DNA from: Chara braunii
Taxonomy: Eukaryota > Plantae > Charophyceae
Reading direction: 5' to 3'
Assembly (NCBI GenBank): GCA_003427395.1
Contig: BFEA01000013.1
Coordinates: forward strand, 4,869,759-4,933,758
DNA: 64,000 nt
The position numbers and the translations under genes were made by a program. Numbering within the stretch: position 1 is the first letter of the stretch; each line of letters opens with the position of its first letter. The notes below the pieces were generated by a model that was given only the letters and a program-made list of their open reading frames with translations, made no database searches and had not been told where the DNA came from. Below are positions 21,008-44,577 of this stretch, one piece after another.

Positions 21008-24000
21008 AGTCTACGTGATCGTAAGTTTTTTCAAAATCAATGAAGATTAATGTCGTGTTCTAATGGCAGTGTTTTGTGAGTTGGAGTACTTCATGGATTA
21101 AAAGGATATTCTCTTAAATATTCATGTTCTCCATAAAGCCTGTTTGAGAGGGATGGATGATATCTTCCATTCTAGGGATCATTCTGTTGGCTAAAGCTTT
21201 TGACAACATTTTGTAGATGACTGTGAGAAGTGTGATAGGTCGGTAGTTTCTAATATCCATTTTATCTCCCTTTTTATATACGAGGGTTAATACTCCTTGC
21301 CCCACCCTTTCGCCCATCTCACCCATGATCCACACCTCTTTATAGAAGTCCATGATGTTCTGGCTTAAGAATTCCCATGTAGTTTCCCAAAATTCTTTGG
21401 GGAAACCGTCAATCCCTGGTGTTTTTTCCTCCTTCATTTGAAGGAGGGCGGTCCAGATTTCCTGTTTGGAGATTGGGGCTTCTAAAGAGTCACATTGTTC
21501 AGGTGTCAATGACTTGTTCATTGGTTCCAAAAAGTCTTTTAGTTGACGATCGTGGTCCTGTGGGTCAGATCTGTCGATGTGCGTGGTAAAAAGGTCCTTG
21601 TAGAAGTCATATGTTATCTTAGCGCACCTTGCCGTGGAAATGGTCGGATCCGATTCCATGGCTTGTGGTTCCTAGAGCGCATCGATCGTTGTTCTTTTGA
21701 AATGAGGACTCGCTAGGTTGAAAAAGTGAGCATCCATTACTCCTTCGGTTGAGAGTCTGGATAGTCTTGCCCTTATCTGGGCTCCTTGCCAACGATACTG
21801 TGCGTGTTTGAAGAGCTGAGTTTTTAGATCTAGTATTTGAGATTGTAATTCGTCGGGGTTTGATTCCTGCCCTGATTCCTGCCCTTGCGAAAATTGTTTT
21901 TGTTCGGTCTCCATGAGGTTTTGCATTATCATGATTTCGTGTTGGTATCTCTGTGCGGCTATATGTTTGGAATATTCGTTGCACTTTTTTGCCAAAAAAA
22001 ACAAACCATTGTTAAACCATGCAATTTGAGAGTCATGTTGGGAGTGGTGATCCTTCCAGAAGGTCCAAACCTATTGCAGGTACTTCTGGAAGGATTTAAA
22101 ATGAAGCAGAGAAGTGTTAAGTTTGTAGTAGCTGACCCCCTGATCTGGTCGTTTTCGGAAAGTCCAGACTGCCATGCACATCATGTGGTCCAGGTCTAGG
22201 TGCAGGCTGATCGGCAGTATTGCCGCCATGGTAAGCCCTCCACTCAAGTCCTCTGATGCGAGGATTAGATCGATTCTAGATTTTGACAGTCTGTTGGGGT
22301 TACTGTTGCGTAAACAAGTAAAGGCCTTTTCGGTCGGTTGGCTACGCCTGAAGGTGTCAAAGAGTGAGAGGGAGGTGCACAAATCCTTCAGTATCGCTTC
22401 GTCCTCCTCTGCGTTGCGTGCGGTGGTAGGAAGGATTCTCCAACGATCCAGCCATCTATCCGGTGTGGCATTGAAGTCTCCTGCTAATATTACCGAAACA
22501 TCGGGGATAGGGATCATCTCGATCTTTTCCAAAAAAACCCTTCTTTCCTGGGGGTTGTTAGGAGCATAGATGGATACAATGCAAACTATTTCTAACTCCA
22601 GCATGCCCAGCACTTTAACCCACCTTCCTTCCACCTTGTCTTATTCTCAGTCGAGAACTTCGAAGCGAGATTCGGGCGGAATCCATATGGTCACCCCTGC
22701 ACTCCCTGGAATAGGGAAAAAAACCTGATATTTTTGAAAGGGTCAGACTTGTTTGTGTGTCTATGATGTTCTGGTGTGTCCATTAAGTGGGTTTCCTAGA
22801 TGCAAATTATGTCCGGCCACGTTCTTTCCCCCACCCCCCGCATCAGGTCCCACAACACATTATTCTTTTCCGGGTTGCGCGAGGCTAGACCAAGTACATT
22901 GATTGATCGAATATCTAGGTCTGCCTGCTGAAGGGTGTGTTTCCACTTTTTGTTCTTACCATACACCACTTCCACCCAATCCATTTTGCCTCGTGTGTTC
23001 CCTCCCACTATTTTGCTTGGAATGGTGATCAATCCTGTGCATCCCAATCTACTCCCCTGTTAAGAATGTTGTTCCTCAATATTGTACATATACAGGTGAG
23101 TAGGTCATCAGTTGACCAAATATTGCTAGGCTTAATTTTTAGTTGGTGAGTGTCCAGAAGCAGGTTGTGTGTGAGCCATTGCAGCCCTGCTTCTTTGTTA
23201 TCTTCAAATGTTACGTATATGTCTTTATAGGCCATCTTCAGGTTCTCCGAATGTACGCTGATGGTGGCCATTGCCCCTGGCTCGTATTGATTTGTGATAA
23301 AGTTTGTGACTTCGTGGATTCGTAGTGTCCCCTCCCTTTTCATGTGCCAACCTTGCAACGTCATTCCTCCGTAAGTGGGGCATATGAGTCTTCTGAGTCA
23401 GCCGGTGACAAACCCAGTTCCCATTTTCCGGTCCTCCTTCTCATGGGGAGTACCAGCACTTTGTCCTCTTTCAGTAGGCTTTTGTGGTACAATCCCTTCT
23501 CAATGAGGTGACGTGTTTTTAATCCTCTGGAGAGTCTTGTTTCATCTGCATTTTGTGCCTCCTCATCCTTCCTTTGTTCGGTTATTTCTGCGTGTGCTGT
23601 TGGCTGGTACTGTCAGGAGCGAAGGGTTTGTTGGTGTGGCCTGAACCGTCAGTGTCTTCGGGCAGATCAAGTGTCTCCGATCTGATGTTTCAAGCTGGTC
23701 AGGAGCTTTTGCGGTTTCGGGAGGCTGAAATTTGAGGTTTACAATGTTCCAGATTCTATATAATGCTGATTGCCAATCCAGATTCGGGGACAGGCCTTGC
23801 CCCAGGGCTTATTTCAAACTGGGACTTTCGTCTAATAAGGAGAATAATTGTACGTAAGCCTCGTCCCAGTATACTTCTGATTGGCCTGAATATAATGACT
23901 GAAGATGACTAATTAGCCATTCCGCCAAACCCTTTAGCTTAGTCTCGATATCCACCTCCCCTTGTCACCCCCAAGCCTCAGGTGTGTTGTCCATCGTTTC

Positions 24001-24775: not shown

Positions 24776-26030
24776 CATGGAGCAGTAGTCAGGCGAGATT
24801 ACCGAGGCCTATGAGACCCGCATGCTGGATATGGTAGCAGAATTCAAGTAACGACTAGTGGCGGCAACATCTGCACGTAAGAAAGAAGATGAGGAAGCAG
24901 AGGAACAGCGTCGCCTTGCTGAACAGCAGCGACAGGCGGACGCTGAGGCAGCAAGGAAGGCCGCAGACGAACGCCGTCGACTACGCCGAGACAAACTCCT
25001 CGAATGCGAGGGGGATATCGAGGTGATCGCCGGCGAATGGGCAGTGGCTGCTGAAGAGGAGGGTGCCCCCTCTGCTGTGCGTGGCCTTGCAACCACAATC
25101 GAACATGTGAGCGACTTGGTCACCACCTGTGCAGCACAGCAAGAGGACATTCTCTGTGTGGATACCTTGGTCCGAAAGCAGATTTGAGTTATTGATGAAC
25201 TACTTGACCGGGTACGTCCGCTGGAACAGCAGCTTGCATCAGCCACCCCCGCCGGACCCTCCAACTTGATGGACCGCGTCAACGTCTTGGATATCGACGT
25301 CGAGACTCTCAAGGACAGCGCTTTAACAACAAATCAACAAATTGACCAGCAGATTTGCGCCGCCACAGTCAGTCTAACCGCGACTAATCGCGAGAGCATC
25401 CCGAAGTTTGACGGCCTCCCGATCTTTCGCGATGCAACGAAGACGGACCTGATCCCATAGTGGCGCCAGTTTGAACTGAAGTTGGATATTCACCACGTCA
25501 TCAACCCGAACCGGCACGCATACTTATACTCCCGCTCGGGAGGCGCGTGCCAGGCATGGTTGGACAACATATTCTCCACGCACAACGTCACAGTCTCCGA
25601 GCTGCATACGAAGATCAGTTGGGTTGATCTCAAGGCAGCATGGCATAAGCGGTTCCAAGTGGAGCCGCCCGAGCTTCAGGCAGCCGAGAAACTTCAACGG
25701 TTCTATCAGAACGACCTGCCAAGCACAGACTGGATCACCGAGTACCAACGCTTGGCATCCACGCCCAACTTGCCGTCAACATTTGTCGCTTTCAAACACT
25801 TCTTCATCAGGAGGAGCTGCCCGGCGTTGCAGAACGCCTTGACGCAAGTTGCAGAGACGCTCACCACAAGTGAGAAGCTTTTTCATAAAGCCTCGTAGAT
25901 CGTCGTGACAAACATAAAAGCCAAGAATTTGGGCCATTCGTCTGCTGCAGGCCAGGGCAGAGGACACCATCGACCGAAAGTGACCGTGGTTGCAGCAACT
26001 ACAACAACCAACCTTTCAAACGAGGCTGCA
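24776..26030 (+). pseudogene. Gypsy gag (Retrotrans_gag-like) remnant belonging to the LTR at 4825-10380; truncated before pol
   Basis: Coiled-coil N-terminus, then IPKFDG...WRQFELKL...SGGACQAWL...ISWVDLKAAWHKRF...LQRFYQ...DWITEYQRL, with in-frame stops. Confidence 0.8.
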
Positions 26031-26998
26031 TCATTCGTCTATAGTCTTTACTCCTAACAAGACCAACAATTCTTTACTCCTAACAAGACCAACAGTTCTC
26101 TCCGTTCGTTATCTAACTATTATCACATACTTCCTCCCTCTCACTAGTATCCTATCCATTCACTCTATCGAGGACTAGACCTTATCATTCACCCAACGGT
26201 TTGATCAAACTTCCACATTCTCATAATCAAATAAGTCATATGCATACACAATCATCAACACCATGACACTCTTGCATAATCAAAATTAAAGAGGAAAAAA
26301 AGATTTGTCGTTCTGCCTGGATCATCAGCCTGCAGTTAACCTAGGTTCATTCACTAAGGACCTCGGTAGGCAACCGAGATCCCCGACAACGGTGCCACCT
26401 GTCGAGCGCAATCGATCCCGCAGGGGGACCCTCCCGGCCTCGTAACGGAGGATTTTGCAGGACTTGTCGCGTAGAGCGTCTTTCCGCTCCGGCCGAGTGT
26501 GCCAGTTATACGTCTCGCGAATCCCTACGAGAGGATAGGGCCACGCGAGGTACAACTTACCTCCACCCGCAGGAGTTGTCACCATCGCTTGGGTGGGTGT
26601 ATCCCCGTTGAGCTACCGGACCACATGCAAAAGTTTTTCGTATGCAATCGCAGAGGTGGCCCAGCCGAGGGCGTTTCTCGGTCACCGTAGCATAGGGGGT
26701 ACGTGCAGTTAACGCCCGAATCGAACCCGCACGTGAATCGTCGCTCAAGGCACTGATCTCTCGAGTGCGACCCTACGTCGGTCGACTAGGACGACCATTC
26801 CAACCACGCGATACACTTTCCAACGAAAATTCATTCTTACTTACAATATCGTGCCAGGCCCCTTTTTCTATCTAGACCCCTTACTTTTCTTGAATCGGAA
26901 ATGCACGGATGTCGCACGTGGGGCTTCACATAAATAGGATGTTACCTCACAAGTCTCCTTCATAATAACCATCCATGCACAAGTACATGAGCAGTCGT

Positions 26999-27423
26999 GT
27001 GTTGCTGGTGGTGCTCCAGACAACTCACCAACACTCCAAATTTCCTGCTGCCCTTAACACAATCTTACCCTACACCCTTTGGGGTACCGCAGGGAGCAGA
27101 AGATGGCAGGGCTCTCATACCGTTTTTGCTCTCGCTAAAGGTTTACCCCTTTGAGCGCGCGCTTTAGCCAACGCCTGATCATCGAAGGCGGTTCCATGAC
27201 TCCTACTTGAGTCATGGGACAGCCTTCGATGCTCAAGCGTTGGCTAAAGAGTGCGCTCAGAGGGGTGAACCTTTAGCAAGCGCAAAGGCGACCTTAGAGC
27301 TTTGCCATCATCTGCACCCTGCGCTACCCCAAAGGGTGTATGGTAAAATGGCGTCAAGGGCAGAAGGAAATTTGGAGCGGTAGTGGGTTAAACTGAGTTT
27401 GTTTGGCGCACCACCAACAACAT
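26999..27423. repeat. Long imperfect inverted repeat (~205-bp arms, 6-nt loop at 27203-27208)
   Basis: ...CATCGAAGGCGGTTCCATGACTC-CTACTT-GAGTCATGGGACAGCCTTCGATG...; pairing extends out to GTTGCTGGTGGTGC / GCACCACCAACAAC. Confidence 0.92.
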
Positions 27424-27976
27424 GCTAACCCGGCCGCCCGGAACCTTATCGTTCCACCAAAATAACTCTAAACAAGGAAAAATCAAACCATCGGACTCCC
27501 ACAATTAAAGTAATGTTTGTAAGTCTGACTTATCTGAAATAGGAGTGTGCATCCGTTTACGCACTCGAAGGAAAGGCCTAGTTGCTCGTTGTTTCATTCT
27601 GCGAGCGTTCGTCCCATAACCTTTTTCGTGTGAGGCCCTCAAGTGTAGTCTGGACTTGGATCTACAAGAAGGACCCGTAAACGAGGGTAGGCATAAAATT
27701 CAGTTATGCGAACCCTCACGATCAGTTGTCATGGCAATGCTTCATGCGTTACCCGCAACCGCTCGACCCAGCACGAGAACCAGCGTTGCATACGACACTC
27801 AAGTGTCAGAAATGAGGTATCGTGAGGGGTATTTCCTTCACGATATTGAACGGTTAAAGGATAAGCCATTCGATCCTCGCGGCGCTTCTCACCTTTAGGC
27901 AAAGCGCCACGATGGGCAATGCTCATATGCTCAACGCATAGGGGAAACCCTTTTGTGCTAAGCTAAAACCTGGAAT

Positions 27977-28086
27977 CAGGGTTGTCGAGCCCCGGTCCCA
28001 GGGGCCCGGCGAGGGTCCGGAGGTCCGGGGGTGGGCACCCCCAACCCCGGCTCCGGACCACCCCCCCCCCCAAAAAAAAAAAAAAA

Positions 28087-28119
<33 letters not shown>

Positions 28120-29138
28120 GGGGGGTGCATAGCGAGAGCTCGCAACACGTGGGCTAAACCCAAAAAATGGGGTTTTATGCCCCGGCCCGTACCCCCCCTG
28201 GGGCCACACCCACCATTGGTGGGACCGGGGTAGCTGCTGGTGCGGGGNNNNNNNNNNNNNNNNNNNNNNNNNNNNNNNNNNNNNNNNNNNNNNNNNNNNN
28301 NNNNNNNNNNNNNNNNNNNNNNNNNNNNNNNNNNNNNNNNNNNNNNNNNNNNNNNNNNNNNNNNNNNNNNNNNNNNNNNNNNNNNNNNNNNNNNNNNNNN
28401 NNNNNNNNNNNNNNNNNNNNNNNNNNNNNNNNNNNNNNNNNNNNNNNNNNNNNNNNNNNNNNNNNNNNNNNNNNNNNNNNNNNNNNNNNNNNNNNNNNNN
28501 NNNNNNNNNNNNNNNNNNNNNNNNNNNNNNNNNNNNNNNNNNNNNNNNNNNNNNNNNNNNNNNNNNNNNNNNNNNNNNNNNNNNNNNNNNNNNNNNNNNN
28601 NNNNNNNNNNNNNNNNNNNNNNNNNNNNNNNNNNNNNNNNNNNNNNNNNNNNNNNNNNNNNNNNNNNNNNNNNNNNNNNNNNNNNNNNNNNNNNNNNNNN
28701 NNNNNNNNNNNNNNNNNNNNNNNNNNNNNNNNNNNNNNNNNNNNNNNNNNNNNNNNNNNNNNNNNNNNNNNNNNNNNNNNNNNNNNNNNNNNNNNNNNNN
28801 NNNNNNNNNNNNNNNNNNNNNNNNNNNNNNNNNNNNNNNNNNNNNNNNNNNNNNNNNNNNNNNNNNNNNNNNNNNNNNNNNNNNNNNNNNNNNNNNNNNN
28901 NNNNNNNNNNNNNNNNNNNNNNNNNNNNNNNNNNNNNNNNNNNNNNNNNNNNNNNNNNNNNNNNNNNNNNNNNNNNNNNNNNNNNNNNNNNNNNNNNNNN
29001 NNNNNNNNNNNNNNNNNNNNNNNNNNNNNNNNNNNNNNNGTTTTGGCAGGGCCGGGGGTCGGGTAGCCCCGCGGCAGGCGTCCGGAGGTCAAACCCCTAC
29101 CCCGACTTAGGCCCGGGGATCCCCGCGTGACAACCCTG
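27977..29138. mobile_element. Non-autonomous hAT-type element (MITE-like), mostly an assembly gap
   Basis: TIRs CAGGGTTGTC / GACAACCCTG. 8-bp TSD CCTGGAAT (27969-27976) / CTTGGAAT (29139-29146), 1 mismatch. Confidence 0.85.
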
Positions 29139-30467
29139 CTTGGAATGTAAAGGACAAGGAACTCGAATCCAGTTTTGGACCAACATACGACCAAACTAAA
29201 TCAAGTAGCAAATACGGGTGGGCGTGTGATCGCGGTGTCGCGAAACTCGGTTAACCACACTTCCTCCTAGCTGTCACAGTTATGCAAATCAAAAAGGTTC
29301 AATCTACAACAAAAAAGTAGTGTGGTATCAAACAATCACTATCACAACAATAGTATGACTTATCCGTCTGCATTTACGCAATATACAAGCAATCACCATA
29401 GCTCAATCTGATTCTTTCATCCATACATGGGATCACATAGTTTAAAACAACATCGCATTCACTACGGGAGTTAACTTTACCGTTGTTTTTGCGACTCATA
29501 CCCTGCCATTTGCACATAAGCCCTAATCACCTTTCCACCACCCCAACAATAAAAGTAGTCATTTTTTTTAAGGAATGACCATTCAGAAAGAAGTATGGGT
29601 GAAATTCCCAAGAAAACATAAAACCCACAACGGCTAAGGCCTTAGGTTGAGATGCAGCAGCCGGGAAGTTGTGTTGCAACCGACCTGTTATCTAGGGATA
29701 ACAAAAGAATGATCCTTCATAGGATCCGACCGAACTAATCAAGCCTTCAATCGAGTTTGTAGACTTGCATCACAGTTCAGACCAAAGGGGACCAAATACT
29801 ATGTTCAAGACAGATGGAGGGCAAACACCTCTTCATATCCTAACGCCTTTGCTAACGTTTCCCTCTGAAGTCATTGAGAACTTTGGCATCACCTCGACAA
29901 AGTCTTACCTAGCAGAAAATAATCTAACTCTCCAAGTTTGATAAAATTTCAACAGCGCTTCCCGTAGAAAAAAGTGTCTTTTCATAATTTTTACGACCTA
30001 AAAAATGACTAACGCTTTTCAGACTTGTAGAAATTTCAGCAGCGCTTTCCGTAGGAAAATGAGGCTGCCAAGATTTATACAAAGTTGGAAATATAAAAGC
30101 AAAGTGCAACTATACCTGAGACTAACTGTCAAACACTTATCTAGTAGTTAGAACTAGAGATAGTCTACACGATCTCTCTCTTTGAAGGTGGGATCGTGAG
30201 CTAACACTAGTGCCAACTTCTCATAAGGTCAGACCTACCTTATCCCAAACTTCCCTTCCCATCATCCATTCTAGTCTATCTATGACTCCAACACTCTGGA
30301 AACATCTAAGAAAGTAAAGTTATCAAGATATGTCTAAAATTGATTGTCCCTCAATCAAACATGCATAACCAACATCCATTTCTCAATCGTACACTTGCTT
30401 TGGTCAAATAGTTCGTCAATCTCTCAGTTCTTTTAACCCTCAGTAAACCCTCCTTTCCAATGACATA

Positions 30468-31755
30468 GGATCAGACTGCTCGATCTTAGAGGTACGCCTG
30501 ACCTGCCTTAGCAAGTGACTAGGGTACACACAACTAGACTACCCAAACTTAGGGGTATGCCTAACTTACATGACTGAAACGTGTGTCCAAACTGCCCCAA
30601 CTGAGGGGTATGCCCAACCCAACATAAACTATGAACATAAAGAATATGACCAGACCGCTCCAATTGAGGGGTACGTCTGACTTCTGTCTAACTGACGACA
30701 GTAGGCATAAGGCTAGACTGCCACAGCTTAGAGGTATGCCGAGTCAACCTTAAATGAATTTTACGTATGACATAGGATTATACTGCCCCAACTTAGGGGT
30801 ATGCCTAACCTTTCTAAATAGACACAAACGACGAATGGTCGGACTGCCCTAACTTAAGAGCACGTCCAACCTACATAACATTAACGACAAAAGGCATATC
30901 GCTAGGTCGCCCCAACTTAGGGGTACGCCTAGTTAGCCTATACAATTTATGATACACAAGGCAATGTGGTCAGACCGTCTCAACTTAGGGGTACGTTTGA
31001 CATGCCTAACAAGTTACAGACAACGTATGACTAAACCTTCCTAACTTAGGGGTACGCTTAGCCGCCGTAACAACAGTTTAAACAACCATACATACTTTCC
31101 ACAAACTTTACAACTTTATTTCTTCTTAGGCAGATGATCAGACCTATCCAACTTAGGGAGACATCCAGCCCTGCCTTAGTTGTTCTTAGAAAAATAAGGA
31201 GATTTTATACCAACTCTTTGCCTTTAAGTTATCAAGGGTATAGGACTCAACCGCCCCAACTTAGGGGTACGTTCAGTTTGTCCGGGTTATTTTCACATTA
31301 TATTCTTCATTTGTTTTTCTTCTCTTTTTGTCATACCTGACTCACTGACTAGACATCCCAACTTAGGATGTTAATATGTCATACGCGTATATAACATGTT
31401 TATCATTTTTTTATACTTTGGATTACTTTTCAAGTTCATAGTTTATGGCTAGGCCGCACCAACTTAAGGGTAACCTAGTCTCATGTTGTTGTCCCACTCA
31501 TAATAAAACGCACAGATCTGGGTCTACACAACTTAAGATATTCCAAGTCCTGTTCCACTAACCCAAAAGAAACATTAAGAATCTAAGCCTTCCCAACTTA
31601 GGGCGTTCATCCTCCTGTTCAGAAACCCCAAAAAAAACAACTGGCTGGACCGTCCAACTTAGGATAAGCCCGACCCTTATAGGTCATGCATTCAGCCCAA
31701 CATACATGAATAAAACATAGCACTAAACCCACTGAACTTAGAGGGATTCAGCCTT
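30468..31755 (-). repeat. Array of ~18 conserved ~31-nt stem-loop repeats separated by unique spacers
   Basis: Plus-strand consensus ~YAGACYGCCCC-AACTTA-GGGGTAYGYCTRAC. Loops at ~30483, 30546, 30599, 30662, 30725, 30790, 30851, 30914, 30982, 31043, 31150, 31258, 31360, 31461, 31530, 31595, 31656 and 31735. Confidence 0.9.
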
Positions 31756-33344
31756 GGTTTGACCCAGTCAAACACAAGCAGAACACCTTCCCCTCGCCTT
31801 CCCCCATTCATTCTGTCCGAATTCACACAAATAATTTGGGTTATTATAAATACTTCTAAATTTTACCTTTCAGATCATGTCCTCAACTCAAAACAAACAA
31901 AAGTAGCTAGCTTTCTCAGTCATACTTGCAGCCTCACAATAACAAAAGGCAGTATAGTTTTAGATGATGGATCACACGTGTAAAACGAATTTATACCTGA
32001 GTGTTCCCTGCCTCCAGAATCCCGCATAAGCTTCAGCAGAGTTCCCACAGTCGTGGGCAAACTCCCCATAGAGTCTTGGTTCAGTCCTACGGGTTGCAAT
32101 CTCATGTGCCGTCTTCCTCTTGTAACCTTAGACTAAACTTAGAGTAAGAATGGCAGAAGGAGAGGTCTCTTAGTCTCTCAAATGCAAGAAGGGTACTCAC
32201 AGACTCACATGAGAGGGCCTTGTAGCCTTCGATCTCCTTAGGGGTCCGCAGTGGTGGCCAATGACACAACGGAGGTTCCCAGATCTTGGTCAAAATGCAG
32301 AATAACAATCTTCCAGACGGTCCTCCAAGTCGCAGTAATAATGCCTCTATGGAGCTTAATCACTCTCTTGAACACAACGTCGTTCCTCGTGGCCGAATCG
32401 CCGCTACGCAACTTAAAAAGGATGCGTTCAAACAACGCACACTTCCCTCCCCAGTGCTCTCTCCAAACTGCAGGCAAATGAGGCAAGCCCGGCAACTGCG
32501 TGCAGGAATAAGCGCAACGGATAAATACAGTTAAAAGCTCACCAGAACAACAATGCACGTCTCTACGTATAGCAATACACAGCGTGTATGGTAGTACTGG
32601 TCCCCAACATCGTAGGTCGAGTAAAGGGTCCACAACCTATTAACCCTGACTGTGTAGTGATGGTGGCAGCTATCTGACGAAACTGTAACTTGATCTAGGA
32701 AAGATGGTCGCACATTGCACAAGATCCACAGTATAGTGAACATAACCCAATAAGTTAATAACCGTCTCAACCGAATATCTGCCCAGTCGTGGTTGTCATA
32801 GCAAGAATCCAGAGTCTATCTATCTTTTTTGGAAACACTAATAACAACTTGCCTCTACAACCACAACAGTTTGGAGTTTATTCAACATTAAAGGCTTGTT
32901 GAAAAGATCAGTACTATGCAGCGGTCCGCCCAAACGCTCGATCAACAATACTTGAACTCACAGTAGTAATGTTGGAGTATACAAAAGCAACATTTAGTCA
33001 TGCGGCACCCGCAAATCGTTAAGGAAACAAAAGTTACATAGAACAACAATAATATATAACTCCTGAAGAAGAACTGTCGCAGTATAATAACGGTGGTAGT
33101 AGGTCTCAAAAGTTGTATGGAATAAAATCACCAAGTTGGAAATATCGCAGCAGTCTAAGTTTCCTGGCAGCATCACAACCTCCAACTCCTCAGCAACAAC
33201 TCTCTGAAAAATAATAGTTTATCGAACTTTATTCAACTAAGGAACAACAACGGTCTTGCCCCAACTCTAAACATGTTATTCGTTAAAATAGGAGATTATA
33301 TTGTGTCATTTTTCTAACGAATTCATTTTTGGCTACAGCCTGAG

Positions 33345-33905
33345 CAACGTAGGCACACCCATCTAGGACTTATCCACATGCGGAAGCTTGCTGAGATCCA
33401 TACTTGTTAAACTTCATAAACGAGATGAGCAAGGTGTCATGATTGAATCCTGGTTGTATAATATAATTATTTAGGTGAGGACTAATTTGTACAAGCATGT
33501 TCATCCTTCGCCTACGACGGTTGTTTGGATGTTCGATGAGATCTGGACGAAGTGTTCTTCAGAAGACCTAGTGTAACGATAGGCACGCCCATCTGGGAAC
33601 CCTGAGCAGAAGTGTGTTGGGATCTATACTTGTTAAAATTAAAGTTTACAAATGTGATGAGCAAGGTGTCATTATTGAATCCTTGTCGGATAATACATTT
33701 GTTTAGGCTAGTCGCTAAGTTGTGCGGGTTTGCCAATCATCTCGCCCGAGATGGTTGTTTGAATGTTGATGAGATCCGGACTTCTTTACAATACTTAGAG
33801 AGATGATGGACCCGCCCATCATCTAGCCCGATGTGTGAAAGTGTGCTAAGATCCATACTTGTTTATAATTGTGATGAGCAAGGTGTCATGATTGTATCCT
33901 TGTTT
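33345..33905 (+). repeat. Left subterminal direct repeats (3 copies, ~225-bp period)
   Basis: GATCCATACTTGTT...GATGAGCAAGGTGTCATGATTG at ~33395, 33620 and 33850. Confidence 0.75.
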
Positions 33906-34669
33906 GACAAATTGACATGTTTGCTTTGAACAATGTGTCATTGTAAACTTCGAGTAATGTAACAGTTAGAGTAGTAGTCGAAGTAAAAGTCAAAGATGTT
34001 CACCGTTCGTTTTGTAACAAACAGTCAGTTTTGACATACAAGCTCGTTTTCTACGACAACACCTATCATATAGCACAAGAACTTCAAATTTTGCACATTT
34101 TTGATTGAATCCACACTTTAATTGGTCATGGACAAAAGGCTTCGGCACGAATGCAAAGTTGTTGGGTACATATAATGTAGGTGGTCACAAGTCATATGAT
34201 TCTATGCAGACGCCAGAGATGTGATGTTAGTGGTTTTTGCATAATAAACCCCACACTCACACACTCACCGAGATTTGTCTTGCATCCACACACCAAATTG
34301 TCATGTCGCACTACAATTACCGATATTATTTGATGTCAATCACATGTAAACACAATTCGAAACGAGGAACACAATGCGCACTTGCTCCGCCGCATGAGAA
34401 ACGGTTTGGACGTGACAAAAATTCCAAAGTCACCACGTGACGCCAGACTGGCAGTGGACATGCCAAAGATAACTCAAACTCACAACCGTAAAAGAAAACA
34501 ATGTCGTTGTGAAAGCGACAGTTGAGTTATATCAGGATTTACAGAATATAATCATTAATGAATGGACTATTTTCGAAAGAAAGTTTATAAATCAATCAAA
34601 TCCATCAAAGACAACGACGTTCTAAAATACACGATGTCAATTGTCGTCTAATAAGTGGAATGTCTTCAC

Positions 34670-35390
34670 AAGAGGACCTAAAAGGTAGTCGATCACCACG
34701 TTGCAATAGTGTCGCAAACATCAACATGAACACCCCACAACTAGCTCCATTCACTTGTCTTGGAACTCCTTTCACCGCAACATTTGTTGCTATCGACTTC
34801 TAACTCCTACCCGACCGCCTATGTAATGTTTGAAGTTTCAAATACTATACAATCAACTTGAAAACACTAAGGTAAAAACTCGAATCAGCTATAACGCGAG
34901 GAAAATAATCAAAATTTTCGAGGACATTATCTCTGAAGTTGATGGAAAGGAAGATCCAGTGATCATTATCTTTGTAGACAGGAACAAACATAATATCATA
35001 TTGAAGCAGATCTACGTTTTTAGCCCACCTTTCCACCCCACCGTATCCTTGAAGTTGCGGTTTACTGAAGAAGAACGAATTAAAGTTCAAGACTTGAAGG
35101 TCTGACGAGATGTCACATGTCGCATATGCGGTCGATCCTAATAGCGCCATGTAAACATTGACCACCTCATCATTCACCCTGTCGTCGATATAGCAAGAGG
35201 GTGAGAAAAGTTTTGCTGCAATTCGCAACTGGCTATCGACGAGGGCAGAGGGAGCAGTGTGAGGTGGCACCAAGCCTCGTTTAATGTCGTATAAAACCCG
35301 CAAGCTTCTAGGCGCAGTCGCCGCAACGAATCTTCCCCCGCGTGTTTCGCGTGTTGTGGTCCGCACTACACAACATCGAACAAAGGACAC
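34670..35390 (-). pseudogene. Ulp1/SENP-type SUMO protease (peptidase C48) carried by the transposon
   Basis: VNDEVVNVYM...FNSFFF...GYGGVERWAKNVDLLQYDIMFVPVY..DHWIFLSINF...NFDY, then GVPRQVNGASCGVFML at ~34720-34770 (His/Asp/Gln/Cys set present). Stop at 34845. Confidence 0.9.
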
Positions 35391-37694
35391 GCGGGGCAGT
35401 GAGAAACGGAGTGTCTAAGCATTGTCCTTCATCACATAACGCGTTACTAAGTATTTTTCAAACATGGCCTGAACCCTACTCACAGATCGTGGATATGTCC
35501 CTTTCTCTCGGGCAGAAGGGAAAAACACTCCTCAATGGCAATGGCATGCTCCTTCTTCCCGATCTCGACATGAATCCCTGATGCTTTTAATATATCCTTA
35601 TGTTTTGTTGTCAACCCGGCTACTTTCTGCAATATGTGTTCCGAAAATTACAAGAACCTCCATGTTCGAGATGACCCTACCCCTGTACAACAGAAGAAAG
35701 AAACGAAAAATGAATACACATTTCCCAACACGAGTCCGACGAAAGTGACAATATAAAAGAACCACATAATCTACAAGACGCAGAACCTCTCCAATTATAA
35801 AACTCCGATTTTGCATGGCCATGAGCACGGAGCTGCGTATGCGCGGCTGGACAACAGAATGACATACGCATTCGAGCTTGACACCCCCGACCTTTTCAAA
35901 GGAAAACAACAACAAACCACAGAAGCGGAAAACCAACATTCCCTGGAGTTCGGATTCCGACGGACTTTTTCCCACAGCAGGCACACATTGACTAACCACA
36001 TTATGCATTGACATAGGAAGTGCGGATTCCGGCGGACTAAAACCACCACTCTCTTCACGAAGAAAAACCGTAATTCGGATTTTTGCGGACTTTTTCCCAC
36101 AACAGGCACACAGAGACTAACCACATTACGTATCAACATGGGAACTGCGGGTCTTAAACCATTACTCTCTCCAAGGAGAAAAAAACTCCATTCCATTGAG
36201 TTGCCCAGGTTCTTAGCTAGGGGGCGAGTACGTCGTGGCGTTCATCACTGCTTACCAGCGGGTTTATCCCTTTGCTCCTTCGTCGGTGACGTTGGTGCTA
36301 GTAACGCCAACACGTCGAGAGCTTGAGTGCCAACCGTAGATTTTTTCGGGGACGTGACATGTTGCCTGCCCCCGACTTCGCCCTCCCAGCTGGCGGCGAA
36401 GGTGGCGCGCAATATCGGAGAGTTGGGTGGTGAGAAAACAGTGGCGGAGGGCACAAAAGGTGTGACATTGCGGGGGTCGTCCATGATAGGTGTTGCAAAC
36501 CGTAGTGCGGACACCTGCTCGTCGCCGAGTATGCCATCGATAACTTCAACGATGCTTATACGTTGACTTTGTTCAGCCAGGCTCACGGCAACGGAAACCT
36601 CTCGCACCGGTGTTGGAGATCGACTGTAGCTGTCAGCGGTTGAACCTCATAATCTTCAGGGTCTGCTGAAAGGTCACTGACCACCTGCATCTCCATCTCC
36701 ATTGTTGTTGCATCGTCGTCGACATCACGCCCGTGATGCTCTGTGTACAACAGCCCGAACGAGTTAGACGACTCTTTGCGGTCGGCATCGTCCTCACTGT
36801 CCACCCGTTCCTCGTCTTCAATATCGAAATCCTCTTGTTCACCCTCTTCTCCTCCACGCAATAGAAACAACTATTTTTCTCTTTCCTCCCCTTCTTCCCC
36901 CTTTTCCCCTTCTTCCCCTTCTTCCCCTTCATCCCTCCGTTCTCCCGAAAGCTTGTCGAATCCCACGGACCACTCTTCCGTCCCCACACAAGTAGCCCCT
37001 CCCGCCGACATGACAACCCGTGTCTATGGACCCCTTTGTGAAGAAGTCCGGACCCCGGCGGAATTTGACGTATCTAGGTGATTCGGCGCTCCACTCGCTC
37101 CTGGTGCCTCGGGCGACGTAGTTCGGATGCCGGCAGACTTCGCCACATGTTCCTTACCGGACCTGGCAGTTGCATGTCCAGCAAGGGTCCCCCCCCGCTC
37201 CCCGCCACTGCGTTCCATTGTCCTGGCCTCCTGGTGAGGTGAAACCTATCCCCTATCAGTGGTCCCCTCTACTGTNNNNNNNNNNNNNNNNNNNNNNNNN
37301 NNNNNNNNNNNNNNNNNNNNNNNNNNNNNNNNNNNNNNNNNNNNNNNNNNNNNNNNNNNNNNNNNNNNNNNNNNNNNNNNNNNNNNNNNNNNNNNNNNNN
37401 NNNNNNNNNNNNNNNNNNNNNNNNNNNNNNNNNNNNNNNNNNNNNNNNNNNNNNNNNNNNNNNNNNNNNNNNNNNNNNNNNNNNNNNNNNNNNNNNNNNN
37501 NNNNNNNNNNNNNNNNNNNNNNNNNNNNNNNNNNNNNNNNNNNNNNNNNNNNNNNNNNNNNNNNNNNNNNNNNNNCCCTGTGGTCCAATCGCGGGGCGCA
37601 CCTTCCAGTCCACCCATCCCTTCGAAGGGCTTGTGTTGAGGTCGTAGAATTCGTCCGAGAGTTCCAACCACTGCTTGTCCTGAAGTTCTTGAAA

Positions 37695-40600
37695 CTAAAG
37701 TTCAGTAGTGGAATCGATGGCCGGGTCGGCGGGTTGAAGGTTGGGATTTGCATACCTCACTCTGTCGATCACCGAACTCCTTGGGAGTTCCAGGTACTCG
37801 GCCTTGGACTGGCATGGGTACGGCTCCCACAACCCTTGGTCGTTGATGAGGGCCATGATCCACTCGCCCTTCTGGATTGCCGGCTGGATAGTTCCCGAGT
37901 GCCAAATCATGTCATGGCCCCAGTCCGCCTCGCTCGATCGAGTGTGGTCGAGCCCTTCGAAGTGAATGGTATCATCCTTGCGAGAAGGATTATCCAGCGG
38001 AACCGAACTCCCGGGACGCAATGGAGGCGGGGCGGCAGGCCGAGGCGTCAGTCTCGCCGCCAGCTTACTCAGGGTCTTACCCAGGGTGAACGTGAGCACA
38101 GGTGATGCCTGGGTGGCCTGGCTTGTTGAGGGACCGACCGACGAGGAGCCTGGGGCATAAAACACCGGAGCATGATGGTAATCGATCTCGATGTCATCGG
38201 TGTTGCTGTCCTCCTCCGACGTAGAGGTGTCGAAAACAACGCCTGTCTCCGCCTCGTCGTCCGTGGAGATCAAGGCACCATAACTCTCGAGCTTAAGCAC
38301 GTGCTCGGACTCGGTGAAGTACAAACACTCCAGCCGGTCGAGGAAGTTCTTTGCGTTCTTGCGCAACGATAACATGTGTTCCTTGCGGCGCGTGTACTCA
38401 GCGTCGTTGTCCCTCCTGGACCGCGTTTCCAAAAAGAGGAAGTCGTAGATCATGTTCCTCTTCCGCTCACTCAACTTGAACCACATGTCCGAAGATGGTT
38501 CCCGAACGCGTGTTGGTTTCACGCTCCTCGAAATGAACTCGCAGCGGTTGGCTCCAGAGTTGACCTCGCTTTTGAGGAACTCCAACGTGTATTGCAACAA
38601 CTCAGAATTCCCTTCCAGCGCGACCACGTGTCGGCCACTCTTCAAAACCCCCCACATGACTCGCTCGTGTAGCTTGCCAAGGAACATGACGCCCTCCCCC
38701 TTTTTGCATACAAATTTCAGCAGATGGGCCAATTCAGTGGGGTTCTGCTCCATCTCCTTGTAGACCTTCCTGTCAACTCCAGGCATGACCGACGCCCACT
38801 CGCAAGGGTCAAAGGGAATCTCCGATATATCTGTCGGGGTCACTTTCTGATGTGCCCCGGCAGCCGTAGTATCACCTGCCGACAACCTAGCATCATAAAC
38901 GACACAAGTATTCTTCCGCAAATCATCACCTTTGAAGAGAACGTAAATGTGTTCGTCAACCGAGTACAAGTTGTTCCCCACTGGAAAACTTTTCTTCTGC
39001 TGCGTCCTCCTAACCCACTTCTCTGCGATTGCCTTGACAATGGGCTAATGGCGCAGGGCCGCAGGCTGGTCATGAAGGAGTAGTCCCAACGCCGAGGGAT
39101 GAAAGCGACGACCGTTCAGTGTGACGGAAACAATTGCTCAAGGGGGGAATTCAAACTCTCGAAAGTTTTTGGTGTCCACTGTTTGAAGTCCAGCGGCTCG
39201 CACAGATCGAGAAAGCATGTGTGACATTTGGCCATCACCAACGAAAAATAAGAACGAAGGGCAGCGTTCTGCTTCTTAATATTGTCCTCGCCCTTCTCAT
39301 CAACTAGAATCCACAAGTGGTTGTAAGGCGTCTTGTGAAGCGTCTGCGCACACTGCCGCACATAACTCACGATATTTCTGCACTTGAGCTTATTTCCCGC
39401 TTGGGTTCCTCGTAACTGTTTTTGGGAAACCCTTTTCCTTCCACAGCCACCGAATGTCCTTCATTGACAGTTTTTAGGTGTCTTGGAGGTGCCTTCAAGT
39501 CCTTCTTGTTGTCCTCCGAGGCGACCAGAAAATACCCCTCGAACTTCTCGTCCGAGAAGTAAACCATACGTGCAGGCCACCTCTCGAAGTTGTACCTCAA
39601 TGCGACGTCGCTGCCGAGATGCGTCCTGGCTGCAGCCGCTTTGTGCTGGCCGGAAACAACGTAATAATAGTATTGGTCTACCAACTCGTCCTTCCTGTCC
39701 TCTGGCTTCAGACGATCCGCTCGTATGCCTGACTTCGGTTTTTCCAGCCCGAGTGGCGCCAGCTTAAGGGTAGGCAACTCGTACGTCTTTTCGGCTTGCG
39801 AGAAGGTCATCCTCATCGCTTCAATGATGAGCTGCGTGTGCACGGGATCCAGCGACCGCTGGTTGTACGAGGCTTCCCACTCACCAATGTCGACGACCCG
39901 CGACGAGTTAATAAAGAACTCCCGCTTTGTCCGCACGCCATCTTTCCATTCCAGGAAGTACGAGGCGTTGATGTTGATGAGGCCCTTCGCCTCGACAGCA
40001 CCCGACTGAGGCTATTTCTGCGCCGACGCCGGGCGCTTCGGACCCGATGTGCCCTCTTGCCCCTCAACTCCCTTCCTTTTTCCCAACATCGTCTGGGGGT
40101 TCCTTGCCTTATGTTTCTTTGCAGAAACCGCAACCTCTTCCTGAGGATCTCCGCTTCTCTTATGCACAGGTTGTTGTACACCCTCTTCGCCCCCCCCGAC
40201 TGACGCCGACGGCCGGTCGTGAACAGGGGTGTGCCCTTCCACCCCAGGAATACTGAGGATAGACTGGTCTCCCCGCCTAAGCGGCGAAGCCCGCGTCTGC
40301 TCTTGTTCTTCATCGAAGCGACTATGGGCCCTGCCCCGGTGGAGTTAGGAAGAAGGACCGAAACCCAAATCTCCCCCTTCCGTGGGAGCACCGCTGGATT
40401 CGAACCCGATGCACATTTGAAGAGGCTGCGACAACTCTTGGTTGAATAGAATGTGGCAGGATCCTCCAGGTTGATGTTCCTCTGCTCCACCAAGTCAAAA
40501 AATTCCCTCGCCGAAACAACACCTTCTACTGTGAGATCTTGGTAGAAAGGGGTCTTCAACAACCCCCGCGCCAGACCTCTGGAACAGGTCGAAAGACAAA

Positions 40601-40904
40601 ACCGCCCCTTTGGAATTGGCAACAACGTCGTTCTTCGAACTGTAAACAGTGTGCAACTTATAATATTGCGTGTTTTCCTTTTTTGCAGGGTGCCATCCGG
40701 CAACCAACCCAAACACTCTTTACGCCTTTTTTTGTCTTCGAGGAATATAAGAGGGTCGCACAGAGGTTTGGTCGGCTCGGACTCATCCCCGCAACACCAA
40801 TCGACGAACCATTTGGTATGCACATGATAGGACCACGATTTGGAGGTTTGTGATTCCCTCACCGATGTTCCGGTCGGCTGCTCCTCGCCCCTTGATGTGG
40901 ACAT
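37695..40904 (-). pseudogene. Large cargo gene: ParB/Srx-like domain (~39500-39930) fused to a degenerate beta-class N4/N6 DNA-methyltransferase-like domain (~38560-39230)
   Basis: ParB-like: YNQRSLDPVHTQLIIEAM...LPTL...YYVVSGQHKAAAAR...WPARMV. MTase-like: CFLDLCEP...VVAFIP...EHIYVLFKG...EQNPTELAHLLKFVCKKGEGVMFLGK...GRHVVALEGN. Frameshifts and stops present; probably continues as low-complexity sequence to ~36245. Confidence 0.55.
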
Positions 40905-41099
40905 CGTGTCTGCACCGGTCCAAGAGACCGAAACGATCCAACACACGGAAGACATACATAACCCACCCCACCAGAGAACTATGGTTTCCAGAGGACCACA
41001 TATTACGCACCACCAAAAGAACATCAAACTCGTCGAATGCACATAGGGTTTCAAGATTGTTCAAGTTCGAATACGCATAGGTATTCACATGCGTTTTCA

Positions 41100-42225
41100 C
41101 GCTCTGTGCGAAGTTCGGATACCGGCGGACTTAATGAATTACTGGCGGACTTGACGAATTCGCTGGACACTCTCGCAGACTGATAACGACGTGCAATGTT
41201 ACGGAGCGTGAGTCGGTTCGCTGACTGCTAGAGTCTGTCGTTCACACGCTCAGACCCAACAAGAAGGCACACCAAACTCGCTTCAGTAACGTTTGAACAT
41301 GACGGTAGACTGCACGAACAGTTGACAAGTTCGTCGGCATCCTCACTTGTTCACATCCTCTTCATGCTTTGTGCGAAGTTCGGATACCGGGGAACTTGAC
41401 GAATTCGTCGGACAATCACGCAGACTGACAACGACGTGCGGTGTAACGGAGTGTAAGCCAGTTTGTCGACTGCTAGATTCTGTCGTTCACACCCCCCATA
41501 CCCAACAAGAAGGCACACCGAAGTTGCCCCAGTAGTGTATAAGCATGATGAAAGACTGCACGAACAGTCAACAAGTTCGTCGATATCTGAACTTCTTCAC
41601 ATCCGTCTTCACGTTTCATGCGAAGTTCGGATACTGGTGAACTTGAGGAATTCGTCGGGCAATCACGCAAACTGATAACGGCGTGCGATGTCACGGAGTA
41701 TGAGCCGGTTTGTCGACTGCTAGACTCTGTCGTTCACACGCCCAGACCCAACAAGAAGGCCCACCAAACTCGCCCCAGTTGTGTTTGAGCATCGCGAACG
41801 ACTGCCCGAACAACTGATAACCTACGGGAACTGGAGGGGAATTTTGTTTGTGGAGTGCGAGACTCGGCTCAAAACAGATCCAGATCCAACAAGAAGGTCC
41901 ACCAAACTCGCCCCAGTTGCGTTTGATCATCACGAAAGACTGCCCGAACAACTGATAACCTGCGGGAACTGGAGGGAAATTATGTTTATGGAATGCGAAA
42001 CTCTGCTCAAAACAGATCCAGATCGAACAAGAAGGCCCACCAAACTCGCCCCAGTTGCGTTTGAGCATCACGAACGACTACCCGAACAACTGATAACGTG
42101 TGGGAACTGGAGGAGAATTCTGTTTATGGAGTGTGAAACTCTGCTCCAGATCAAACAAGAAGGCCCACCAAACTTGCCGCAGTTGCGTTTGAGCATCACG
42201 AAAGACTGCACGAACAACTGATCAC
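41100..42225 (+). repeat. Tandem repeats (~250-bp units, then ~138-bp units) upstream of the cargo gene
   Basis: Recurrent CCAACAAGAAGGCCCACCAAACTCGCCCCAGTTGCGTTTGAGCATCACG at ~41255, 41500, 41747, 41888, 42026 and 42154. Confidence 0.85.
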
Positions 42226-42529
42226 CAAGGTCCCTTAAGAGTGCTTTTGGCAATCCGCAAAGACAACCACCGACTGTCTGGCACTTGTTGTAGGTGGTCG
42301 GGCGACAAACACATCAGGATTGAAGCTATTCGGCACCCCGACGTCTACTCCATTGGTGAGACAAGAATTTGTGAAGTCCGGATTCCGGCGGACTTAGATT
42401 GTGGGCATGTAGAACAGGAATCACAGGGTGGCGCTGTTCGAAGCTGGCACCGCTCCGGCAACGGAACTGAAGTTGAAGTCCGCCGTCGTCAGAGTACACC
42501 GGCCAAGCAGTACACCGCCGTGGCCCGAC

Positions 42530-43870
42530 TTCACATATTCACCAACAGTGGCAACGAAAGAAGTTCGGATGCCGACGGACTTGGCGGTATTCCTGGTAAC
42601 TCGTCAGGAGTTATCCGTTTTCACCAGTACGTGAAGTTCGGATGCCGACGAGCTTCGTGTTTCCACACAACCTCCGCTGCAACTAGGGTCTTCCTGGTCC
42701 AGCATGGGAGCGGGGGACAAAAGAAGCTCGCCGACATCCAAACTTCACGTTTTGTCTGCGGGGGCTGACTGAAGAAGTCCGCCCGCATCCGAGATTCAAT
42801 GCATGGCCTCCTCTGCATTCGAACTTCATGTTCCAGGTGCGAGGGCTGACTGAAGAAGTCCGCCCGCATCTGAAGTTCAATGATTGGGCTACTATGCTGC
42901 TCTACAGTTATCATTCGCCAGTATCCTGACTTGAATCGTTGTCTAAACATTGCAACTGGAGAGGCAAGGGTGAAGGCTAACTCGACGAAGTGGATGGTTG
43001 TGGAACTGATGTTTTTTCGCATTACAGCCTCACGTATTGTTGCTCTGCGGCTATTGTGGAAGTCTGTGGGCATCCAGACTATTAGAATGAACCCTTGCCT
43101 CTCCAGTTGCAATGTTTAAACACGATTCAAGTTCGGATACCGGTGAACTAGAACTGTTTAGCAGCTGAGTACGCCAATCATTGAAGTTTGGATGCGGGCG
43201 GACTTCTTCAGTCAGCCCCCGCAGCCGGAACGCGAAGTTAGGATGCAGAGTAGGCCAAGCATTGAAGTTCGGATGTGGGCGGACTTCTTCAGTCAGCCCC
43301 CGCAGACAAAACGTGAAGTTCCGATGTCGGTGAGCTTCTTTTGTCCTCCGCTCCCATGCTGGACCAGGAAGACCCTAGTTGCAGCGGAGGTTGTGTGGAA
43401 ACACGAAGTTCGCCGACATCCGAACTTTTTCCGTTGCCAATGGTGGTGAATATGACATTGTGAAGTTCGGATGCCAACAATTCAGAACTACAACTTTTTA
43501 GCAGCAGAGTAGGCCAATCCTTGAAGTTCGGATGCGGGCGGACTTCTTCAGTCAGCCTCTGCAGCCGGAACGCGAAGTTTGGATGCAGAGTAGGCTAGTC
43601 ATTGAAGTTCGGATGCGGGCGAACTTCTTCAGTCAGCCCGCACAGATAAAACGTGAAGTTTGGATGCCGACGAACTTCTTTTGTCCTCCCCTTCTGTGCT
43701 GGACCAGGAAGCCCCTAGTTGGTTGTGAGGAAACACGGAGCTCGCTGGCATCCGAATTTCAAATACTGGTGAGCAAGGATAACTGTTGACGAGCTGCCAG
43801 GAATACCGCCAAGTCCGCCGGCATCCGAACTTCTTCCGTCGCCAATGGTGCTGAATATGTGAAGTTCGGA
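42530..43870. repeat. Large inverted repeat with a duplicated right arm
   Basis: 42530-42971 pairs with 43091-43470 and again with ~43480-43870; loop ~120 bp. Confidence 0.85.
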
Positions 43871-44577
43871 TGTTGACGAACTTCGTGCATTCACGCATAG
43901 TCTGCAGTGACTACAGGCTTTTGTGCTTGCGATTGGACCCCGCACGGCTGTTGCGATATTTTAAGTTCGGATCCCGGCGAACTACAACAGCGCTTGGATG
44001 GGGTGTTCAATATGCGTCCTTTCTGAGTCGGCTTAAGCACTCGCTGCACTGCAAAAGCGGCTGGATGGATTCCGATGTGGTTCGATGATGAACAAGGTTC
44101 GATAATGTCCGATGGCCGATGCTGGACAAGATCCGATGGAGTCTGATAGATTTTCGCTTCACATAAGCGCTCGAACAAAAAGCCACACACGATCTCTCAT
44201 TCAGTCAGTCAATGAACACATCGATCACTGACCGACAATCAAACAGTACATCAAGCAAGAGATCGACCACGCTCTGTTGATCAGTGGACTAGTTGATTGG
44301 ACGGACGGTCGTGTTTTGATCGATCACTTGTTTTCGTAGTTGAGGATCGTGGGGTGCGACAATAGCGAGGCGTGTTTATGCACACACACAAAAAGATACA
44401 CGATGGTATGGTCCGCGTTTGATATTGGTTGTTCACTTGTTTGAGCGCCCGGTTCAAGCTATCGATTGGTCGACTAACTTATTGGTTGAACGATCTATTG
44501 ATCAAACCGACTACGGATGATGATGTGTTGATCGAGCGGTTTGTTCTGTCAAACTGGTACGAACACCGGTTGAATAT

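What the first reader, a model, noticed from the sequence alone, without database searches (positions are those of the whole stretch)
30468..31755. CRISPR-like geometry in a eukaryotic retroelement: ~18 covarying stem-loops with unique ~30-nt spacers
Seen: ~31-nt repeats with a strongly conserved AACTTA loop (UAAGUU on minus). Period is 53-68 nt for the first 10 units, ~100-108 for the next four, then 61-79; spacers look mutually unrelated. Outer stems change in compensating fashion (GGTCGGAC/GTCCAACC, CTAGG/CCTAG, GTCAGAC/GTTTGAC). Plus-strand A.C mismatches such as TAGAC/GCCTA become G.U pairs on the minus strand, which is the sense strand of the host LTR element. Inference: structure selected at RNA level, either a multivalent protein-binding/packaging array or a precursor cut into small guide-like RNAs. 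No cas genes are present.
Basis: partly seen in the sequence, partly recalled or inferred. Interest (0 to 1): 0.85.

Follow-up and report, generated by a model that had tools for sequence, protein, structure and literature searches.

The report
Same-loop hairpin array in algal transposon
Eighteen small hairpins with one shared loop and stems that differ yet still pair lie in tandem in the non-coding tail of a multi-copy repeat, likely a retrotransposon, of a Chara alga; they likely act as a repeated protein-docking signal on its RNA, and they are not CRISPR-like because the spacers are related to each other and inherited.

Summary
The array is real: 18 hairpin units at 30471-31753, periods as reported, loop AACTTA (UAAGUU on minus). 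Stem covariation in units 1-12 exceeds a tree-aware neutral model (P<=0.0125 in 9 of 9 settings). The CRISPR analogy fails: spacers are homologous to each other (0 of 1000 shuffles), recur in other genomic copies, and those copies run collinear over 5-6 units without gaps. It is an old ~63-nt tandem repeat whose hairpin and loop were kept while the rest diverged. It belongs to a high-copy repeat family of a Chara braunii-like genome, downstream of a decayed minus-strand ORF; related copies give a few minus-strand poly(A) reads. G·U asymmetry alone does not fix the strand, and the LTR host is not proven. Best reading (0.55): a multivalent RNA cis-signal, likely bound by the element's Gag or a host protein. 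Closest known: unexplained 3' tandem arrays of plant Ty3/gypsy elements. This scan noted similar same-loop hairpin arrays in retroelements of four other genomes. New variant of a known kind; interest 0.5.

The parts
30471..31276 (-). Hairpin units 1-12: outer stem, bulged purine, inner stem with a fixed A·C pair, loop UAAGUU; many with a further basal helix
31344..31753 (-). Hairpin units 13-18: same loop, shorter or shifted stems
30502..31030 (.). Spacers 1-9 (22-37 nt): homologous to each other, recurring in other genomic copies
   Evidence: (table 5c, 8)
31920..32815 (-). Decayed ORF of unknown family ending just 5' of the array on minus (2 stops in 238 codons against 11.9 expected for 32102-32815); its 3' part is high-copy and transcribed in related copies; no homolog found
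32061..32101 (-). About 40-nt stretch shared by the most copies of the family and by most RNA reads
29340..30460 (-). Multi-copy non-coding sequence 3' of the array, with a very high-copy part at 29674-30341 (two 36-nt repeats at 29944 and 30031; TATA-like heptamer at 30073-30079)
26380..27000 (-). Very high-copy LTR-like stretch ending in ...CGACA at 26400, followed by a primer-binding-site-like 18-mer at 26397-26380; candidate (unproven) end of the array's host
   Evidence: (depth, loose ends at 26411)

Best explanation
The array is an old ~63-nt tandem repeat in the non-coding tail of a high-copy repeat family, likely a Ty3/gypsy-type retroelement, whose 18 same-loop hairpins likely fold on the element's minus-strand RNA and would serve as a multivalent docking site for one RNA-binding protein, most likely the element's own Gag/nucleocapsid (packaging or RNP assembly) or else a host export or stability factor. 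Shown: 18 units, homologous spacers, covarying stems, kept loop, many genomic copies with the same order, a few minus-strand reads from related copies. Inferred: origin by tandem duplication followed by selection on shape and loop; function at RNA level; the class of the host. Untested: the partner protein and the step of the life cycle. This copy is decayed; other copies carry better-paired stems.
For: Watson-Crick excess 12.4 against 0.2-0.9 (sd 4-5), P<=0.0125 in 9 of 9 simulation settings on a star-like tree. Loop identity 0.87 while outer stem arms are at 0.57-0.59. Of 16 listed variant places in stems or loops of units 1-12, letters of other copies give a Watson-Crick pair at 8, the common loop letter at 4, a linked C-G to T-A double change at the loop-closing pair of unit 4 (2 places) and the fixed A·C pair at 2; none gives a new mismatch. 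Contigs of other copies cover 340 and 351 bases of the array with 60-61 other letters and 0 gaps (table 8). Run X7: first mate on + in 9 of 19 array bins (depth 0.35-1.58) and 0 on -, and 24-31 against 0.2-0.3 over the ORF tail; X5 alike; by the tool's stated convention that is minus-strand RNA, the sense of the decayed ORF. Position matches the pol-3'LTR tandem arrays of Retand and Ogre (PMC11963269, PMC3305785, passages read).
Against: No partner protein or assay. Host not defined: no gag-pol or LTR pair is linked to the array, and the upstream ORF has no homolog. Fold energy does not fix the strand: plus folds as well or better in several units, the 621-nt z-score is -3.5 on plus and -1.8 on minus, and pairing with G·U read on plus is as significant (p 0.0003) as on minus (p 0.02). 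RNA over the array is only a handful of reads, 92 of 105 X7 reads under 90% alike and none at 95% or more; X6 shows both directions about equally and follows DNA depth; library strandedness was not checked on a control gene. The variant places are the tool's best-supported rows (28 used; 2037 and 265 further rows not shown), and majority letters tend towards the ancestor with or without selection. The count of double changes alone was not significant in 5 of 9 settings (P>0.05). PMC6317226 reports no non-chromoviruses in the algae it sampled.
Confidence: 0.55

Rival explanations
1. Neutral decayed minisatellite: a palindromic 63-nt unit was amplified in a hypervariable retroelement tail, and apparent compensation comes from template-switch correction of quasi-palindromes during replication or reverse transcription, without function.
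For: Spacers are homologous; unit gains and losses occur among copies (joints 30537-30591 skipping 53, 30880-30825 going back one period); such arrays are common and family-specific in plant gypsy tails (PMC11963269); total Watson-Crick count alone is reachable at matched divergence (P 0.13-0.30).
Against: Loop kept at 0.87 and a non-canonical pair fixed in 9 of 12 units, neither of which palindrome correction would keep; covariation excess; order and non-uniform periods kept without gaps in copies 18% apart.
Confidence: 0.2
2. The hairpins act on single-stranded DNA (reverse-transcription intermediate or extruded cruciform) and are read by an element protein such as integrase, a recombinase or a nuclease.
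For: Both strands fold; covariation is carried by Watson-Crick pairs; several G·U cells of this copy are Watson-Crick in other copies; 12-13 bp arms round a 6-nt asymmetric core recall recombinase sites (recalled, not tested).
Against: Outer-stem columns 6-34, 9-31 and 12-29 hold 15 G·U and 0 A·C cells on minus, whereas the fold-back at 27000-27422 has 11 and 10 G·U pairs on the two strands; no recombinase or HUH gene was found nearby; the core motif order is the reverse of attC (by eye, recalled consensus).
Confidence: 0.15
3. Double-stranded DNA binding array (enhancer in a long U3, or target of an anti-silencing protein, VANC-like) belonging to a large LTR or to the Ulp1-bearing transposon upstream.
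For: A TATA-like heptamer and a very high-copy stretch lie 400 bases downstream; a Ulp1 (Peptidase_C48) gene remnant lies at 34605-35414; VANDAL/VANC arrays are recalled, not read.
Against: Sequence-specific dsDNA binding predicts constant arms, not covarying ones; single-copy-depth DNA at 32346-33013 separates the array family from the Ulp1 element.
Confidence: 0.06
4. CRISPR-like precursor cut at the hairpins into small guide RNAs carrying the spacers.
For: Repeat-spacer geometry with a kept loop; small RNAs cannot be seen in the oligo-dT runs laid here, so processing is not excluded.
Against: Spacers are homologous to each other and inherited in place; they are partly the basal helix; no match elsewhere in the window or in 50,697 phage records; no nuclease or effector gene nearby; no pile-up of read ends (weak for short RNAs).
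Confidence: 0.04

Closest known systems
Tandem-repeat arrays between pol and the 3' LTR of plant Ty3/gypsy non-chromoviruses (Retand, Ogre/Gmr9; PMC11963269, PMC3305785, PMC6317226, passages read; Macas et al. 2009 recalled)
   Same: Family-specific array of short units just downstream of an ORF in a long non-coding tail of a high-copy element; unit number varies among copies; function stated as unknown (PMC11963269).
   Different: Here units are so diverged that Tandem Repeats Finder misses them while loop and pairing are kept; the words 'hairpin' and 'secondary structure' occur 0 times in the main text of the two array papers; the host's LTRs and pol are not shown; the genome is a charophyte alga.
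Multi-stem-loop viral packaging signals, e.g. the alphavirus signal with repeated GGG-motif stem-loops (PMC6283419, passages read)
   Same: Several hairpins present one loop motif on variable stems, a design for multivalent protein binding.
   Different: Those lie in coding RNA of a virus, are fewer and not tandem duplicates, and are tested; here 18 regular units in non-coding sequence with no known partner.
3' UTR cis-elements of LTR retrotransposons such as the Evade ENE (PMC12501189, abstract read)
   Same: A structured RNA element in a retroelement 3' region.
   Different: ENE is a single element that binds poly(A); no U-rich internal loop is seen here and no Rfam family matched.
CRISPR arrays
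   Same: Short palindromic repeats at regular spacing.
   Different: Spacers are homologous and inherited, repeats vary with covariation, no cas genes, eukaryotic repeat DNA.

Membership tests
CRISPR array | Unique spacers unrelated to each other | tested here: not met
   0 of 1000 shuffles; middles 8 of 1000
CRISPR array | Near-identical repeats | tested here: not met
   mean column identity 68-76%
CRISPR array | Spacer content differs between copies by acquisition; spacers match foreign DNA | tested here: not met
   collinear copies and recurring spacers; no phage match
CRISPR array | cas or other effector genes nearby | tested here: not met
   Pfam on 39 and 25 selected frames; not all 115 frames were scanned
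CRISPR array | Processing into unit-length RNAs | not testable with these tools
   only oligo-dT 101-nt reads were laid
Retand/Ogre/Athila-type pol-3'LTR tandem array | Tandem origin, variable unit number | tested here: met
Retand/Ogre/Athila-type pol-3'LTR tandem array | Lies in a high-copy element downstream of an ORF | tested here: met
   summed contig depth 130-9,943 against about 12 in the flank (a rough measure); decayed ORF
Retand/Ogre/Athila-type pol-3'LTR tandem array | Host has an LTR pair, TSD, PBS and PPT | tested here: inconclusive
   one LTR end with PBS-like 18-mer at 26400 on the same strand, linkage to the array not shown; no second LTR in the window
Retand/Ogre/Athila-type pol-3'LTR tandem array | Host RT/RH/INT fall in the non-chromovirus clade | not testable with these tools
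   no pol linked to the array; no genome held
Multi-hairpin packaging signal | Repeated loop motif on covarying stems | tested here: met
Multi-hairpin packaging signal | Present on the element's RNA | tested here: inconclusive
   few one-directional reads of related copies in X5 and X7; X6 two-directional
Multi-hairpin packaging signal | Binds capsid protein and is needed for packaging | not testable with these tools
   no partner identified
Hammerhead-bearing retrozyme or Penelope-like repeat | Hammerhead catalytic core in the repeats | tested here: not met
   no core-like match inside the array; no Rfam hit
Coding repeat (21-aa period) | Periods in multiples of three and an open frame | tested here: not met
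   periods 53, 65, 61, 68, 61; stops in all frames

The most novel reading that the evidence does not exclude
The long-unexplained tandem arrays in retrotransposon tails can be selected, multivalent RNA signals: here 18 same-loop hairpins form a modular platform that the element's Gag (or a host protein) coats cooperatively, a retroelement counterpart of multi-site viral packaging signals, and one member of a class that recurs across eukaryotes.
Probability: 0.3. Interest if true: 0.72.

Novelty: new variant of a known kind. Interest (0 to 1): 0.5.

Why it matters
Tandem arrays in the 3' region of plant gypsy elements are common and their function is stated as unknown (PMC11963269). This array separates what is kept (loop, pairing, one fixed non-canonical pair) from what is free (stem letters, spacers), so it yields direct mutants and a direct question: what binds UAAGUU hairpins, and does valency matter for packaging, export or stability of retroelement RNA. 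It is not a eukaryotic CRISPR.

Tried and rejected
No genome held, so no genome-wide model search. Rfam: one chance-level hit outside the array. ARAGORN: no tRNA. Collection scans: viral 2 loci and metagenome 9 loci, all unrelated simple repeats with no blastn hit of the 9 to the window; prokaryote genomes 0. Phage blastn: none. Homolog searches for frames upstream of the array: none; Atlas hits at 0.80-0.81 only. Run search: no RNA holder listed among indexed runs, not used as evidence. Earlier findings on this genome or sequence: none. Literature searches listed no paper on this array; the Chara genome paper is not held; supplements were not read and may list this repeat family. Rejected: CRISPR-like spacers, coding repeat, hammerhead repeat, attC-like order, the stretch at 27977-29138 as an LTR (it has terminal inverted repeats and an 8-bp target duplication), and G·U counts as proof of strand.

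Full report
Observation. A three-unit pattern occurs once in the window and in 0 of 100 shuffles. Tandem Repeats Finder does not report the array even at score 30. On the minus strand units 1-12 read as an 8-bp outer stem, a bulged purine, a 6-bp inner stem with an A·C pair in 9 of 12 units, and the loop UAAGUU. Units 13-18 keep the loop with shorter or shifted stems; a covariance model from units 1-12 finds 14 and 17, three others weakly, and misses 15.

Covariation. For units 1-12, 79.8% of 168 cells pair, 7 of 14 pairs change on both sides, 13 cells do so, 8 of 500 shuffles reach that; the covariation score alone is weaker (36 of 500). Watson-Crick cells number 104 against 91.6 by permutation (p 0.0017). 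On a tree of the 12 periods (86% terminal branches) independent neutral evolution gave an excess of 0.2-0.9 (sd 4-5) against 12.4 observed, P<=0.0125 in 9 of 9 settings; the plain Watson-Crick total and the count of double changes were not significant in all settings. The pairing register was chosen from these same sequences. Mean identity is 0.87 in the loop, 0.81 in the 5' inner arm, 0.55-0.59 in the other arms.

Spacers. Ten spacers score 16.8 pairwise against 11.4 +/- 0.6 in dinucleotide shuffles, 0 of 1000; the middles of 8 spacers alone give 8 of 1000. Contigs from other copies run over 340 and 351 bases of the array with 60-61 other letters and no gap, and letters between joints are homologues of spacers 1 and 4. 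Single periods are lost or doubled in some copies. So spacers are diverged parts of one ~63-nt unit and are inherited; the CRISPR analogy fails. No phage match, no match elsewhere in the window.

Genome and host. All 20 homologues of the frame at 37695-39041 are named Chara braunii proteins. Laid contigs show summed depth 130-9,943 over the array against about 12 in the single-copy flank, with peaks of 33,000-54,000 at 31147 and 32081 (run X2); the tool warns that this is no copy number, but hundreds of copies at 80% or more is the plain reading. Similarity fades at about 32285; 32346-33013 is at single-copy depth. A minus-strand frame at 32102-32815 has 2 stops in 238 codons against 11.9 expected (P 0.0006, chosen after looking at six frames) and ends just 5' of the array; no homologue was found. 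Downstream on minus follow multi-copy non-coding DNA, a hAT-like insertion (27977-29138), a 420-base fold-back (27000-27422) and a very high-copy LTR-like stretch ending at 26400 before a primer-binding-site-like 18-mer (the motif is recalled). That the array sits in the tail, or in a very long LTR, of that family is plausible but no contig shown links them. The gag-like frame at 25461-25898 is on plus and is another element; the Ulp1-bearing element upstream is separated by single-copy DNA.

Strand and expression. Structure alone does not decide: 30 G·U and 23 A·C cells on minus, outer stem favouring minus and inner stem plus; minus is G+T-rich in spacers (0.59) and flanks (0.55-0.57) too; folding z is -1.8 on minus and -3.5 on plus. 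Three outer columns hold 15 G·U and no A·C on minus, while the fold-back control is symmetric, 11 and 10. In run X7 first mates lie on + in 9 of 19 array bins (0.35-1.58) and never on -, and at 24-31 against 0.2-0.3 over the ORF tail; X5 agrees; X6 has both directions and follows DNA depth. By the tool's stated convention this is minus-strand RNA. The reads come from other copies (92 of 105 under 90% alike, none at 95% or more in X7), are few over the array, cover only 6-13% of each run, and cannot show small RNAs.

Other copies. Of 28 listed variant places in or between units 1-12 (best-supported rows only), 16 fall in stems or loops: 8 give Watson-Crick pairs, 4 the common loop letter, 2 form a linked C-G to T-A change at the loop-closing pair of unit 4 (27-44% of depth in X2 and X3; both changes in one loose end), and 2 give the fixed A·C pair; none adds another mismatch. 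This copy is therefore a decayed member, and three of its G·U cells are Watson-Crick elsewhere. Majority letters lean to the ancestor with or without selection, so this shows the family state, not selection by itself.

Mechanism. Best reading (0.55): tandem duplication of a hairpin unit, then selection on loop and shape, giving a multivalent signal on the element's RNA, likely read by Gag/nucleocapsid or a host RNA-binding protein. Shown: units, covariation, kept loop, homologous spacers, multi-copy family, some minus RNA from relatives. Inferred: RNA-level action, retroelement host. Untested: partner and role. Rivals: neutral minisatellite with palindrome correction (0.2), ssDNA signal (0.15), dsDNA binding array (0.06), guide precursor (0.04).

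Comparison and novelty. About half of recently active Retand elements carry family-specific tandem arrays between pol and the 3' LTR, of unknown origin and function (PMC11963269, passages); soybean Gmr9/Ogre has one just downstream of its coding region (PMC3305785, passages); PMC6317226 (passages) notes such arrays in non-chromoviruses and found none of these elements in its algae. Neither array paper uses 'hairpin' or 'secondary structure' in its main text. The alphavirus packaging signal has repeated GGG-motif stem-loops (PMC6283419, passages); Evade has a 3' UTR ENE (PMC12501189, abstract). Nine literature searches (listings seen) showed no description of this array; the Chara genome paper and all supplements were not seen. 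Earlier notes of this scan describe similar same-loop arrays in retroelements of four other genomes; they are unchecked and are not counted as support. Verdict: real, selected-looking, not CRISPR-like; new variant of a known kind; interest 0.5.

Noticed in passing
window 27000-27422: About 420-base imperfect fold-back (187 predicted pairs, about -312 kcal/mol on either strand), multi-copy at a depth like its flanks; MITE or intrinsic long hairpin; no clear target duplication.
   Followed up: partly
window 27977-29138: hAT-like non-autonomous insertion: 10-bp terminal inverted repeats starting CAGGG, 8-bp target duplication with one mismatch, assembly gap inside.
   Followed up: partly
window 34605-41060 (minus): Decayed multi-copy element with a Ulp1 (Peptidase_C48) remnant and long frames found only in Chara gene models; parts look ParB-like and methylase-like by eye (no Pfam support); flanked by 81-, 138- and 246-bp tandem repeats at 41084-43872 and ~230-bp repeats at 33346-33910.
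   Followed up: partly
window 26380-26400 (minus): LTR end followed by a primer-binding-site-like 18-mer of the Athila/Tat type (recalled motif); of note because non-chromoviruses were reported absent from sampled algae (PMC6317226).
   Followed up: partly
window 32061-32101: About 40-nt stretch far more conserved across copies and RNA reads than its flanks; coding constraint or a separate RNA signal.
   Followed up: no
window 27800-27950 (minus): Strongly structured 150-nt window (z -5.2 on minus, -3.3 on plus) with short hairpins.
   Followed up: no
window 33269-33302 and 55503-55536: 34-bp inverted match (91%), perhaps the end of another repeat family; may mark the upstream limit of the array's host.
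   Followed up: no
window 15973-16818 (+), 21114-22640 (-), 1117-1512 (-), 6441-6968 (+): DUF659 (hAT-type) frame and several LINE endonuclease/RT remnants.
   Followed up: no
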